From a virus (taxonomy: Duplodnaviria > Heunggongvirae > Uroviricota > Caudoviricetes), in the IMG/VR virus record IMGVR_UViG_2698536477_000003: a stretch of 52,420 nt of DNA. One strand, 5' to 3'. Below, piece by piece: positions 1 through 3,000 of the stretch. The position numbers are program-made. Position 1 is the first letter of the stretch; the number at the start of each line of letters is the position of its first letter.

Positions 1-3000
1 ATGCACGTAAAAAAAAATGTGTTTTTAATTGAGCAAATAAATGATCTCAAAATGTGGGTCAATAAGTATATTGATGATTGCACTGATGAGGATTTAAACG
101 ATCGTGACTTTATTGCATCAGTTGTTGACCGGGCTATTTTTCATTTCGCGATTAATAGTATATGTAATCCTGGGGCTAATAAAGATGCGACTCCCATTGA
201 ACGATGTACTTTTGATGTAGAAACTAAGAATGACCTTCCCTCCACGGTTCAGCTATTTTATGAGGAATCTAAGGATAATGAACCTTTAGCGAATATACAT
301 TTTCAAGCAATAGGTTCTGGTTTTTTAACGTTTGTTAATGCCTGCCAGGAACATGATGACAACAGCTTAAAATTATTTGCTTCGCTGTTAATTTCACTTT
401 CATATTCTAGTGCCTACACAGATTTAGCCGGAGCAGAAAAAGTGAATATTAATGAATATAATGAGAACTATCTGACAGCTCAGTTTGAAGAATTATCTCA
501 ACGTGATATGAAGAAGTACCTGGGAGAGATGAAGCATCTGGCGGACCGGGGGGGGATGAAATTTGATGACTATCTGGATAAAATGTCACTTCTGGTGAAT
601 GAAGGAAAGCTCGAACCTGATATTTTAAGCAAAATGCGAGATGCTGCACCGAAATTAATTGACTTTGCTAAGTCGTTTGACCCAAACTCAAAGGAAAAGA
701 TTAAAATACTTACAGATACTTCTAATTTAATTTATGATTTATTCGGGGTTAAATCGGCGAAATAATATGTGAAGTTCTTCGATGGTATGGAAGGCATTAC
801 ATAAAAGAACCTAATACTTATTGGGTTCTTTTTTCTTCTATCAGTGCCATTAGCAGGAAGAGATATCACCGGAGTTTAATGTGTGATTTTTTATTTATCG
901 TCGAACCTGGATTGTTTATCATTGTCCTTAACAAGGCTAACGGCTAATAAGATTATTTCCATCACTTCGTGAGAGCTTCATGCCTTGATTTGATCTCAAT
1001 TTTCTTTTGCAATGAGACAGGCGCTTCCTGTTGTTATGGTATAGTACCCCGCTATTGAGCCTCCTGAACAGTGATGCTGAATAACATAACCCAATGATAT
1101 ATCGATAAAATAATCTCTACATTTGAAAATGCACGGTAATTCTGAAATGCAAAAAATCAACCAAACCAGCGCAATGCCTGAAAAAACTGACGTTCACTGG
1201 AGTGGTCGGTTTAGCGTTGCACCAATGCTCGATAGGATGTATCGTTTTTGAAAAACAATTGGTTATGTGTTTTGTGGGAGCCTATTGGGAACCTATCAAA
1301 AGATTTTTTGTCATAACAGTGTGAGATGCAAAACACTGTGATGGTCGCTTTGTTGACATCGCAACTTCTGCAGGTATAATTCGCCACCAATTTGTAACCT
1401 GTGTATATGTACAGTCATTTGCTGGTTATAAACACAGTGATTTGCTCTTGCAATCTTCCAAAACTTTTTTGTTCGTGTTAGGTTGAGATAACAGTGATGA
1501 TACTGTTTGCACATTCAGTGTAATGAGGAGGGTGGTTATGTACAGTCCGGTACAAATAGCCAATAAATTCATAACGTTGGGAAACCAACATCATAATCCT
1601 CTGACCCACATGCAACTGCAGAAGCTTACTTATATTGCCCATGGTTACTATTTAGCATTAACAGGTAAGCCTTTGCTCAATGAATGTGTCTCCGCGTGGA
1701 AGTACGGTCCAGTTATTCCTGGAATGTACGATGCTTTCAAAGATTATGGGAATAAACCTGTTACGAATGTAGCAGTAGCTCCTTTTGGTGGCATCGTTAC
1801 TATGGATCCTCAAGCAGAGAGCATTATAGGGGCTGTTTATAAGTTTTACGGCTCGAAAAATGGAATTGAGTTATCAACTCTAACTCATATGCCAGGTACG
1901 CCTTGGTCACAAGCTTATAATGGTATTGGCTCGTCGATCATCTCAAATGATGCGATCAAGGCTTATTATCATGATTTATTGAATAACCGACAGCAATGTC
2001 AGGGCCTCTGAAAAAGTAATATTCAGGGATGACATGTCTCATAATTCAGATATCTATAAACTGATCGGAGCGGCCGCAGGTGTTGAAAATGGTCGCTCTG
2101 AAGCATCCTTAAACTCTACTGACAGTCAAGAGCAGGTTTTTGAATCCGCATTTGAGCCGTCTAATCATGAGAGCGATGATGATTCTTCTTCAGAAAATAA
2201 GGCTATTCTGGAGGAAGAAGAGTTTGGTTCTAATACTGGTGCATTGCATGAGTTTATGCAGCAGAACAGAATGGACAGTCTTCAAGCTCAGCTTGATATG
2301 CTCAAGTCACAAGTACGGGATAAGATAGCTGACGCAACTGGTAAAGAAATAGACAATGAGCTTCGGACAAAAATGGCCTCATTCACGGTTTGGTTTATGT
2401 CGTGTTGGTGCTTATTTGTAGCCGGAATGTTTGTATCATTTCTTATTGCTCATGAAGGAAAGCCGCCAGTTGAAGCAATCGTTGCATTACTGGGAACAAG
2501 TACAATTAGTATTGTTGGTTTGGTTGGCTTCGTTGTTAGTGGATTGTTCAAATCTAGAAAAGATGGCGATAAAGAAAAATAACCCGTATATACACGGGTT
2601 ATTCATGGTCTTAGTTTAGTTATATTTTTGTTTATCCGTTCTGACCTTTTCCCACTCAGCTCGTCCTTCTTCTCGCCTTTTGTCTATGTATTCCGCAAGA
2701 TCCTGAATATTGATGCAACGTTTTGCTTTTTGTGATGTGCCGATGCGATATGTTGGAACGGGCAACTTACAAGCGTTTGCTTTTGCTTCTGCCGTGGCTG
2801 GACTCATGCCAAAGAACTTTTGGCTAACTGCTGAGAGTTCAATGTTAGGGGTATTGAATTCAGCCATCAGTAAAAACAAGGTGTTCATAATTTTCTCCAT
2901 CAAAACCGGCTGCACCCGGGAAAATCATAATTCTGTGCTGGTGGCAGGAATTAATTTCTGCCAGATAGCGGAAACATATTTTGCCTGATGACGGGCATCG

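What the first reader, a model, noticed from the sequence alone, without database searches (positions are those of the whole stretch)
1353..2582. LexA-box-controlled Panacea-domain protein plus membrane protein at the attL end: candidate SOS-inducible toxin-antitoxin or abortive-infection module
Seen in sequence: a textbook sigma70 promoter (TTGACA-N16-TATAAT, 1353-1380), a consensus SOS box (ctgtgtatatgtacag, 1399-1414) about 20 bp downstream, a ~120-nt leader with a tiny uORF, then two co-directional genes 22 nt apart: a 157-aa protein with a Panacea/DUF4065-like motif (1538-2011) and a 182-aa protein with an acidic N-terminus and two C-terminal TM helices (2034-2582). Established knowledge: Panacea-domain antitoxins (PanA) pair with many unrelated toxins including membrane ones; several SOS-induced small membrane toxins exist (TisB, DinQ, HokE). 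Inference: an accessory gene pair switched on by DNA damage, i.e. at prophage induction, with a possible role in host killing, exclusion or defence. The pairing and its LexA control are not something I can match to a described system.
Basis: partly seen in the sequence, partly recalled or inferred. Interest (0 to 1): 0.8.

Follow-up and report, generated by a model that had tools for sequence, protein, structure and literature searches.

The report
SOS-controlled PanA–PanT toxin-antitoxin prophage cargo
This gene pair is the already published E. coli PanA/PanT toxin-antitoxin system, whose toxin makes pores in the membrane; what seems unreported is that its promoter carries three binding sites for LexA, the DNA-damage repressor, and that relatives in other bacteria and phages have such sites too.

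Summary
There is a 12/12 sigma-70 promoter (1353-1380) and an SOS box (1399-1414). panA (1538-2011) matches Pfam SocA_Panacea at E=6e-18. panT (2034-2582) has an acidic N-terminus and two C-terminal TM helices.

The pair is not new. The PanA protein is RefSeq WP_000287252.1, the exact antitoxin validated by Kurata et al. 2022 (PNAS) as "PanA/PanT Esc. col." with the same 22-nt gap. Its toxin depolarises and permeabilises the membrane. The window carries a different PanT allele; the alleles I could read are 95-100% identical to it.

The added finding is regulatory. The leader holds three LexA-type boxes, not one (1397-1416, 1420-1439, 1501-1520). Sites this strong are expected 0.025 times per shuffled window. 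Among 32 divergent PanA-PanT loci (Enterobacter, Klebsiella, Salmonella, Serratia, E. coli, metagenomic phages), 29 have a strong LexA box within 1.3 kb upstream of panA. Eleven of these, plus the window, have it within 350 nt. In many P2/186-like loci the box probably belongs first to an upstream tum/dinI gene.

The two PanAT papers never mention LexA or SOS. LexA binding and damage induction remain untested.

Verdict: a known system with a probable, apparently undescribed, SOS control layer.

The parts
1147..1235 (+). Orphan 5' fragment of host dusA with its native upstream region, left at attL by prophage integration. It reads towards panAT.
   Evidence: Window 1100-1232 is 100% identical to intact dusA in prophage-free E. 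coli. RefSeq annotates it as 'tRNA-dihydrouridine synthase, incomplete'. The attL and attR sides align at 79%. No + strand terminator-like site was found between it and panA.
1293..2615 (+). The cargo module as a whole: promoter, operators, panA, panT and a 3' hairpin. It lies between the phage left arm and the PrtN/excisionase-like gene.
   Evidence: Related dusA prophages share the sequence up to about 1292 and from about 2616 onward, but carry different genes in between (L054). 79 of 5,426 complete E. coli genomes carry this module. In all five whose annotation I read it lies next to the dusA fragment.
1353..1380 (+). Consensus sigma-70 promoter: TTGACA, 16 nt, TATAAT.
   Evidence: 12 of 12 matches. 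The -35 TTGAC and -10 TATAAT are conserved in the homologous Enterobacter regulatory region (A3). Only 1 variable column among 11 E. coli haplotypes.
1397..1416 (.). LexA box 1, ACCTGTGTATATGTACAGTC. Its core lies about +12 to +27 from the inferred transcription start.
   Evidence: Exact CTGT-N8-ACAG. PWM 18.2 bits. Enterobacter homologues have a 19-22-bit box at the equivalent place.
1420..1439 (.). LexA box 2, TGCTGGTTATAAACACAGTG, 23 bp centre to centre from box 1.
   Evidence: PWM 19.4 bits. The E. coli variant G1421A moves it towards consensus. A weaker 14.5-bit counterpart exists in Enterobacter ludwigii-type loci.
1501..1520 (.). LexA box 3, TACTGTTTGCACATTCAGTG, ending 18 nt before the panA start codon.
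   Evidence: PWM 17.1 bits. Invariant in 11 E. coli haplotypes. Klebsiella, Salmonella and L034 homologues have a 19-24-bit box 14-19 nt before the panA ATG. It is disrupted by a 6-nt insertion in Enterobacter.
1538..2011 (+). panA, a stand-alone Panacea-domain antitoxin (157 aa, no DNA-binding domain).
   Evidence: PF13274 E=5.9e-18. RefSeq WP_000287252.1 equals the validated PanAEsc. col., listed as 'noNTD' (no N-terminal domain). The protein is 100% identical in 16 of 17 related loci despite 22 variable nucleotide columns.
2034..2582 (+). panT, the membrane toxin (182 aa): acidic disordered N-terminus, long helix, two TM helices.
   Evidence: Hydropathy and charge. AlphaFold model, low confidence overall (mean pLDDT 58.5) but 67-84 over the TM hairpin. 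The family has an invariant C-terminus ALLGTSTISIVGLVGFVVSGLFK (A1). An allele of this protein (WP_000019185.1) depolarises and permeabilises E. coli. Window allele WP_032209643.1 is 95.1-98.9% identical to the other alleles found in 17 related loci.
2577..2604 (.). 12-bp hairpin overlapping the panT stop codon. The T-run is on the minus strand only.
   Evidence: Terminator-like site reported on the minus strand. It probably terminates the convergent PrtN-like transcript. Whether it terminates panAT is uncertain.

Best explanation
The region is a self-contained accessory cassette (a 'moron') at the left end of a dusA-integrated Stx2 prophage. It encodes the known type II toxin-antitoxin pair PanA/PanT(Esc. 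col.).

Shown elsewhere, by experiment on the identical PanA and a close PanT allele:
- PanT kills E. coli by depolarising the inner membrane and making it SYTOX-permeable.
- Co-expressed PanA neutralises it.

Inferred here, from sequence and comparison:
- The operon is driven by a consensus sigma-70 promoter that host LexA keeps shut through three SOS boxes in the transcribed leader. Two are in tandem just after the start site; one is next to the ribosome-binding site.
- The module is therefore silent in an undamaged lysogen and is transcribed as one panA-panT mRNA when RecA-stimulated LexA cleavage occurs. That is the same moment the CI(S24) repressor of the prophage is cleaved.
- The boxes lie downstream of the promoter, so they could also block read-through from the orphan dusA promoter.
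- PanA has no DNA-binding domain, so LexA would supply the transcriptional control that HTH-containing antitoxins supply for themselves.
- PanA comes first and has the stronger Shine-Dalgarno (GGAGG against GGGA), so it should be made in excess.

Speculative:
- Free PanT appears only if PanA is removed, outnumbered or triggered, for example after SOS shut-off if PanA is labile, or on an unknown cue sensed by the Panacea domain.
- The outcome would be membrane collapse of a DNA-damaged or induced cell.
For: Identity:
- PF13274 hit.
- PanA is WP_000287252.1, the same accession, A|T order, 22-nt gap and 'noNTD' label as in Kurata et al. Table 1 and Dataset.
- Toxicity and pore formation.
- PanA/PanT annotation in PhiR47_1.

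LexA control:
- Three boxes at 17-19 bits, inside the range of the E. coli boxes used to build the PWM; 0.025 such sites expected by chance per window.
- The core pattern is enriched in the window.
- The boxes are not disrupted in 11 E. coli haplotypes. The two substitutions inside them fall at flanking, non-core positions; one (G1421A) moves towards consensus.
- The homologous Enterobacter regulatory region keeps the promoter, box 1 and a weaker box 2.
- Klebsiella, Salmonella and L034 have a box 14-19 nt before panA.
- 18 of 19 divergent viral-contig loci have a 20-30-bit box within 1.2 kb upstream of panA, and none in the other 72.7 kb of those loci.
- Of the 32 loci in the clustering (31 fetched plus the window), which fall into 16 unrelated upstream-sequence families, 29 have a box within 1.3 kb. 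Twelve of those (the window included) have it within 350 nt of panA; I saw no tum or dinI gene in that interval in those I inspected.
- Neighbouring genes are repeatedly SOS genes: DinI, a Tum-N-like protein, a UmuD-like protein.
- The same prophage has tandem boxes before its own dinI.
- Alternative cargo at the same site in other dusA prophages has no box, so the boxes travel with panAT and not with the site.
- The CI operators of this phage look different.
Against: - No experiment shows LexA binding or damage induction.
- My PWM was built from E. coli SOS boxes recalled from memory. The consensus quoted in PMC7556043 and the pattern search agree with it.
- All three boxes lie downstream of the -10 element, and box 3 is more than 110 nt from the start site. 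That is a less common position for a LexA operator.
- In many P2/186-like loci the box sits before tum/dinI and may regulate those genes. Some of these loci have their own promoter-like site about 160 nt before panA, so part of the family-wide association could be hitch-hiking.
- Three loci have no box: Providencia L045, L081, and L058, which has only 934 bp of upstream sequence.
- The exact toxin allele tested in the literature (WP_000019185.1) could not be retrieved for comparison.
- Complex formation was not shown for this particular pair.
- Co-induction of toxin and antitoxin does not by itself explain when the toxin acts.
Confidence: 0.75

Rival explanations
1. The LexA-like boxes are not functional operators. 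panAT is expressed constitutively, like a classical type II TA, from its consensus promoter or from dusA read-through, and serves prophage or locus stabilisation.
For: All boxes are downstream of the -10 element. Box scores (17-19 bits) are in the lower half of the range for the E. coli boxes. P2-like relatives have a box-free promoter-like site near panA. Providencia and L081 homologues lack boxes.
Against: Three boxes within 125 bp are expected about 0.025 times per 52 kb each. They recur in unrelated upstream sequences across genera. A 12/12 promoter driving a pore-forming toxin with no autoregulating antitoxin domain ('noNTD') would be costly without a repressor.
Confidence: 0.1
2. The pair is an anti-phage abortive-infection or exclusion system. 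PanA senses an infection cue and releases PanT. LexA mainly keeps the cost low, or arms the system when DNA damage or a competing phage perturbs LexA.
For: In P2-like prophages the pair sits between gpA and the portal gene, the hotspot shown to hold antiviral systems (PMC9122126). One such locus has a reverse-transcriptase gene next to it. Ernits et al. propose that Panacea is a sensor of unknown cues and link TAs to defence.
Against: No PADLOC model matches either protein. No defence phenotype is reported for this pair in the papers read. A system that is switched off in unstressed cells would be absent when most lytic phages arrive.
Confidence: 0.25
3. PanT is used by the phage itself during induction, as an SOS-timed pore that shuts down host metabolism, helps lysis or blocks superinfection. 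PanA acts as a timing brake, rather like an antiholin, and the pair is not an addiction or stress TA.
For: PanT forms large pores. Expression would coincide with prophage induction. The module is carried by two unrelated temperate phage types, and in P2/186-like phages it sits in or after the LexA-controlled tum unit.
Against: The prophage has its own lysis genes. Related dusA prophages do without the module. Some homologues are in non-inducible-looking islands next to fliC or ssrA. Nothing tested.
Confidence: 0.2

Closest known systems
PanA/PanT(Esc. col.) of E. coli STEC O31, toxin cluster T3 (Kurata et al. 2022, PNAS, PMC8832971)
   Same: Identical PanA protein accession (WP_000287252.1). 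Same gene order and same 22-nt intergenic gap. 182-aa two-TM toxin with a charged N-terminus.
   Different: The window carries another PanT allele (WP_032209643.1). The paper does not discuss the promoter, LexA or SOS (0 mentions). Its dataset labels the locus 'NotPhage', whereas here it is clearly prophage cargo.
SOS-regulated toxin-antitoxin systems of E. coli: tisB/istR-1, dinQ/agrB, hokE, symE/symR (type I); dinJ-yafQ and yafNO (type II) (from my own knowledge)
   Same: LexA box(es) at the promoter of a toxin locus. TisB, DinQ and HokE are also inner-membrane depolarising toxins.
   Different: Those membrane toxins are peptides under 60 aa controlled by antisense RNAs. Here the toxin is a 182-aa protein neutralised by a Panacea protein. 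No sequence relationship, and no Rfam sRNA match.
Colicin operons (from my own knowledge)
   Same: A strong promoter followed immediately by multiple LexA boxes, driving a lethal protein together with its protective partner. Silent until SOS.
   Different: No homology, no secretion or lysis gene, and the boxes here are adjacent rather than overlapping.
LexA-controlled p95-tum unit of coliphage 186 and prophage dinI genes (from my own knowledge; dinI examples quoted in PMC7556043)
   Same: Temperate-phage accessory genes placed directly under host LexA. In P2/186-like relatives panAT lies right behind the Tum-N-like and DinI genes, or takes their place. The window's prophage also has a LexA-boxed dinI.
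   Different: Tum is an antirepressor and DinI modulates RecA. PanAT is a toxin-antitoxin pair with no known role in the lysis-lysogeny switch.

Membership tests
PanAT (Panacea-antitoxin) type II TA systems | Antitoxin contains the Panacea/DUF4065 domain (PF13274) | tested here: met
   E=5.9e-18, 66.3 bits against a 25.7-bit cut-off, residues 27-123 covering profile positions 1-112 of 113.
PanAT (Panacea-antitoxin) type II TA systems | Conserved two-gene, co-directional architecture with a cognate toxin gene | tested here: met
   panA lies immediately upstream of panT in the window and in every homologous locus fetched: and 19 of 19.
PanAT (Panacea-antitoxin) type II TA systems | Toxin inhibits growth and is neutralised by the cognate PanA | not testable with these tools
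   Reported for the identical PanA and toxin allele WP_000019185.1 (PMC8832971). The window's allele is 95.1-98.9% identical to the other alleles seen in 17 related loci. The tested allele itself was not retrieved.
PanAT (Panacea-antitoxin) type II TA systems | Direct PanA:PanT protein complex | not testable with these tools
   Pull-downs in the paper covered five other pairs, not this one. The structure tool does not accept a two-chain or fused query.
LexA (SOS) regulon | Operator matching the gammaproteobacterial SOS box (taCTGtatatatataCAGta) at or near the promoter | tested here: met
   Three sites of 17.1-19.4 bits within 150 nt downstream of a 12/12 promoter.
LexA (SOS) regulon | Operator conserved in homologous loci with diverged flanks | tested here: met
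   29 of the 32 loci in the clustering (window included) have a box within 1.3 kb upstream of panA, across 16 unrelated upstream-sequence families. Caveat: where tum or dinI intervene, the box may serve those genes.
LexA (SOS) regulon | LexA binding, and RecA/LexA-dependent induction by DNA damage | not testable with these tools
   No experimental data found.
Type I SOS membrane toxins (TisB, DinQ, HokE) | Small hydrophobic peptide toxin with an antisense RNA antitoxin | tested here: not met
   The toxin is 182 aa with a protein antitoxin. No Rfam family matched and the leader is unstructured.
Catalogued anti-phage defence systems (PADLOC-DB v2) | Match to a defence-system protein model | tested here: not met
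   0 families for either protein at E<=0.01.
Phage moron (autonomous accessory cassette) | Own promoter and terminator, inserted between conserved phage genes, absent from or replaced in sister phages | tested here: inconclusive
   Own promoter is present. The site holds other cargo in sister dusA prophages. The 3' hairpin has its T-run only on the opposite strand.

The most novel reading that the evidence does not exclude
Host LexA, rather than antitoxin autoregulation, is the family-wide switch of this stand-alone-Panacea PanAT clade. Temperate phages of two unrelated types (lambdoid Stx phages and P2/186-like phages) would then deploy a pore-forming toxin specifically at the SOS/induction moment. 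This would supply the 'unknown activating cue' that the PanAT field lists as open. It would also define a protein-antitoxin counterpart of TisB-type SOS membrane toxins, with a role in induction commitment, post-damage dormancy or killing, or inter-phage conflict.
Probability: 0.35. Interest if true: 0.6.

Novelty: already known. Interest (0 to 1): 0.35.

Why it matters
The gene pair is a published, experimentally validated toxin-antitoxin system, so the module adds nothing new as such.

The regulatory layer does add something. PanA antitoxins that consist only of the Panacea domain have no DNA-binding domain. The authors of the PanAT work state that Panacea is probably not an autoregulator and that the activating cue is unknown.

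A consensus promoter gated by three LexA boxes, recurring across genera and phage types, gives a concrete and cheaply testable answer for this clade: DNA damage. If confirmed, it places a pore-forming toxin in the SOS regulon of Shiga-toxin prophage lysogens. SOS-inducing antibiotics already matter there, because they trigger toxin-phage induction.

Tried and rejected
- Genome-contig scan with the PanT alignment: only two very distant hits, useless for footprinting.
- Rfam and RNA folding of the leader: nothing. I rejected a riboswitch, sRNA or attenuator reading.
- uORF at 1408: no Shine-Dalgarno and not conserved. Rejected.
- PADLOC: no hit.
- PDB sequence searches for PanA and for the PanT profile: no solved relative.
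- AlphaFold of PanT: mean pLDDT 58.5, too low for a fold search. I used it only for helix topology.
- I tried to retrieve the tested toxin WP_000019185.1 through cluster look-up, the paper's supplements and four annotated genomes. I found sister alleles (WP_000019186.1 and others) but not that accession.
- A bare 'PanAT' literature search was swamped by unrelated words.
- I considered that the boxes might be operators of the phage CI repressor. Rejected: the cI-cro intergenic repeats are different.
- I considered that the boxes might belong to the integration site rather than the cargo. Rejected: sister prophages with other cargo lack them.
- I looked for a second promoter just upstream of box 3 and found nothing convincing.
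Full report
**1. What is in the sequence**

The window is E. coli chromosome, 100% identical over the queried 1100-2700 to strain 2014C-4135. A prophage is inserted into the 5' end of dusA.
- Host sequence, including the original dusA promoter region and first codons, runs to about 1232-1235.
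- The integrase (49821-50918, minus strand) and a rebuilt dusA (51007-52044) lie at the far end. The two junctions align at 79%.
- The prophage carries a Q antiterminator (16000-16395) and an Stx-type ribosome-inactivating A subunit (18406-19365), so it is a Shiga-toxin phage. It resembles phages 1720a-02 and phiSTEC1575-Stx2k.

- TTGACA-16 nt-TATAAT at 1353-1380, the only 12/12 promoter match in 900-3000.
- CTGTGTATATGTACAG at 1399-1414.
- A 157-aa ORF at 1538-2011 behind a GGAGG Shine-Dalgarno.
- A 182-aa ORF at 2034-2582, 22 nt further on.

**2. The proteins**

- The first ORF matches Pfam SocA_Panacea (PF13274) at E=5.9e-18 over almost the full profile.
- The second has no curated family. 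Residues 1-113 have net charge -14, and two hydrophobic helices lie at about 116-140 and 146-172.
- An AlphaFold model has low overall confidence (mean pLDDT 58.5) but 67-84 over the TM hairpin. It shows a short N-terminal helix, a disordered acidic stretch, one long helix running into TM1, a short HEGKPP loop and TM2.
- Homologues across Enterobacterales (Klebsiella, Enterobacter, Salmonella, Providencia, Pantoea, Serratia, Cronobacter) keep an invariant C-terminus, ALLGTSTISIVGLVGFVVSGLFK, and a GxxIDNxLR motif. The N-terminus varies freely.

**3. The pair is already known**

- RefSeq calls the first protein WP_000287252.1. Kurata et al. 2022 (PMC8832971) list exactly this accession as the antitoxin of 'PanAEsc. 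col.-PanTEsc. col.' from E. coli STEC O31, with toxin WP_000019185.1 and mode of action 'Membrane'.
- Their dataset gives order A|T, intergenic distance 22 and no N-terminal domain, which is identical to the window.
- They show that this toxin shuts down transcription, translation and replication together. It causes strong depolarisation plus SYTOX Green permeability, interpreted as large-pore formation.
- The window's toxin is another allele (WP_032209643.1). The seven PanT alleles I could read in 17 related loci (16 of them with the identical PanA) are 95.1-98.9% identical to it. I could not retrieve the tested allele itself.
- GenBank phage PhiR47_1 from ECOR13 already annotates the pair as PanA antitoxin and PanT toxin.

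**4. The regulatory region holds more than was reported**

I built a position weight matrix (PWM) from 26 E. coli SOS boxes recalled from memory and made it symmetric. It finds three sites in the panA leader:

| Box | Coordinates | Sequence | Bits |
|---|---|---|---|
| 1 | 1397-1416 | ACCTGTGTATATGTACAGTC | 18.2 |
| 2 | 1420-1439 | TGCTGGTTATAAACACAGTG | 19.4 |
| 3 | 1501-1520 | TACTGTTTGCACATTCAGTG | 17.1 |

- The 26 E. coli boxes used to build the PWM score 13.3-27.0 bits.
- Sites of 18.2 bits or more occur 0.025 times per shuffled window.
- Independently of that PWM, the plain pattern CTGT-N8-ACAG is found 5 times against 0.72 expected.
- Boxes 1 and 2 are 23 bp apart centre to centre, just downstream of the inferred transcription start. 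Box 3 ends 18 nt before the start codon.
- The leader RNA is not unusually structured (z=-0.27) and matches no Rfam family.
- The 24-codon uORF at 1408 lacks a ribosome-binding site and is not conserved.

**5. Is the LexA signal conserved?**

*Within E. coli.* 79 of 5,426 complete genomes carry the module. In the five whose annotation I read it lies next to the dusA fragment. Among 11 distinct haplotypes:
- The promoter has one variable column.
- Box 3 and the Shine-Dalgarno region have none.
- The two substitutions inside boxes 1 and 2 fall at flanking, non-core positions. One of them (G1421A) moves towards consensus.

*Beyond E. coli.* I fetched divergent loci through the PanT family. All have a Panacea gene directly upstream of panT.

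| Loci | Arrangement |
|---|---|
| Enterobacter | Homologous regulatory region: TTGACT…TATAAT, a 19-22-bit box, and in some a 14.5-bit second box |
| Klebsiella quasipneumoniae, Salmonella, viral contig L034 | Unrelated upstream sequence, with a 19-24-bit box 14-19 nt before the panA ATG, the position of box 3 here |
| 19 divergent viral-contig loci (PanA 43-48% identical) | 18 have a 20-30-bit box within 1.2 kb upstream of panA; none in the remaining 72.7 kb |

I grouped the 350 nt upstream of panA from 32 loci (31 fetched plus the window) by similarity. This gives 16 unrelated families.
- Boxes lie within 350 nt in seven families (12 loci, the window included).
- Boxes lie farther upstream in most other families.
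- Only Providencia L045 (where the pair follows a Q-like antiterminator), L081 and the truncated L058 have none.

*A caveat.* Most viral-contig loci are P2/186-like. There the box follows the replication gene gpA and precedes a Tum-N-like gene of about 60 aa and/or a DinI gene, and panAT comes only after those.
- In these loci the box may primarily serve tum/dinI.
- L043 and L055 have their own promoter-like site about 160 nt before panA.
- In L047 and L068-L073, however, tum is absent and the box-bearing promoter is followed directly by panA.

Further points in favour:
- Sister dusA prophages with other cargo at the same site have no box.
- The genes around panAT in Klebsiella and Enterobacter are themselves box-preceded small genes and a UmuD-like gene.

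**6. How it most likely works**

*Established by others:* PanT is a pore-forming membrane toxin and PanA neutralises it.

*Inferred here, with good comparative support but no experiment:*
- LexA represses a very strong promoter through three operators. The operon is therefore off in the lysogen and comes on with the SOS response.
- PanA has no DNA-binding domain. Ernits et al. 2023 argue that Panacea is probably not an autoregulator and that the activating cue is unknown. LexA would fill that gap for this clade.

*Further inferences:*
- Operators placed in the leader can also stop read-through from the orphan dusA promoter. No + strand terminator-like site lies in between.
- PanA should be translated better than PanT (GGAGG against GGGA).

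*Speculative:* I cannot say when free toxin appears or what it is for. Possibilities are decay of PanA after SOS shut-off, a trigger sensed by Panacea, commitment or host shut-down at prophage induction, or inter-phage defence. The defence idea gains some support from the module's place in the gpA-portal hotspot of P2-like phages, known to hold antiviral systems. Neither protein matches a PADLOC model.

**7. Comparison with known systems, and novelty**

- The module is a member of, and in fact the type example of, the PanAT T3 membrane-toxin pair.
- As a regulatory design it resembles SOS-controlled toxins (tisB, dinQ, hokE, dinJ-yafQ, yafNO) and colicin operons. It fails the defining features of the type I toxins, which are a small peptide and an RNA antitoxin.
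- Neither PanAT paper mentions LexA or SOS. Rousset et al. do not mention LexA, tum or DUF4065. Four targeted full-text searches found no description of LexA control of a Panacea system.

I therefore rate the system as already known. Its probable SOS control is an apparently undescribed regulatory layer, of moderate interest and easy to test.

**8. Verdict**

- Observation: confirmed and extended.
- Interpretation: partly supported.
- Confidence that this is PanAT(Esc. col.): above 0.95.
- Confidence that LexA represses it: about 0.75-0.8.
- Confidence in any specific physiological role: low.

Noticed in passing
window 49516-49820: A DinI-family gene (49516-49765, minus strand; PF06183 E=5e-20) lies just downstream of the integrase. 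It is preceded by two tandem strong LexA boxes at 49773-49792 (22.9 bits) and 49801-49820 (21.5 bits). Both ends of the prophage therefore carry LexA-boxed cargo.
   Followed up: partly
window 8180-8199: The best LexA-box match in the window (TACTGTTTTTACATACAGTA, 25.5 bits) lies inside the coding sequence of the CI-like repressor (7716-8408, minus strand; HTH plus Peptidase_S24), in the linker region. Function unknown; chance is unlikely.
   Followed up: no
window 16967-16986: A strong LexA-box match (TACTGTAAAAATATCCAGTT, 24.7 bits) starts 8 nt into the DNA methyltransferase ORF (16959-18017). This ORF lies between the Q antiterminator and the stx A-subunit gene.
   Followed up: no
window 16000-19365: The prophage is Shiga-toxin converting: Q antiterminator (PF06530) at 16000-16395 and a RIP-domain Stx A subunit at 18406-19365. 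Kurata et al.'s dataset labels this PanAT locus 'NotPhage', but here it is the first cargo inside a dusA-integrated Stx prophage.
   Followed up: partly
L043 2475-2496; L055 2354-2376; L072 2220-2241: In the P2/186-like branch of the family, a conserved GC-rich terminator-like hairpin sits between panA and panT. Its T-run continues into the panT start codon (…GGGGTTTTTTATG). This could be a way to set the antitoxin:toxin ratio. It is absent from the window's 22-nt spacer.
   Followed up: no
window 1538-2582 and 17 related E. coli/phage loci: PanA is 100% identical at the protein level in 16 of 17 loci despite 22 variable nucleotide columns, which are essentially all synonymous. PanT has 7 alleles differing at 17 residues, including TM1 positions 120, 124, 130, 131 and 134.
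   Followed up: partly
window 1316-1339 and 1490-1507: The LexA half-site-like hexamer ACAGTG/CACTGT occurs 4 times in 1290-1540, against 22 times in the whole 52-kb window. This includes an 'inside-out' pair upstream of the -35 (ACAGTG…CACTGT) and a perfect palindrome, AACAGTgatgatACTGTT. The palindrome is conserved in Enterobacter even where box 3 is broken. Unexplained.
   Followed up: partly
L054 1635-2730 (E. coli RM19259, same dusA site): Sister dusA prophages (including O157:H7 strains) carry two different hypothetical genes in place of panAT, between the same left arm and the PrtN-like gene. They have no LexA box. The site is a cargo-exchange spot.
   Followed up: partly
L078 368-607 and 2734-2973; L075 584-1092; L037 1370-1687: In Klebsiella and Enterobacter, panAT is flanked by 79-aa genes of phrog_3893 (function unknown), each preceded by a 24-28-bit LexA box, and by a UmuD-like gene (phrog_3469). 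Together these form small clusters of SOS-boxed cargo.
   Followed up: partly
window 2616-2915: The convergent neighbour is a PyocinActivator/PrtN-family protein (E=1.4e-22), annotated as excisionase in phage mEp460. Its transcript, if antiterminated, would run antisense through panT and panA towards attL.
   Followed up: no
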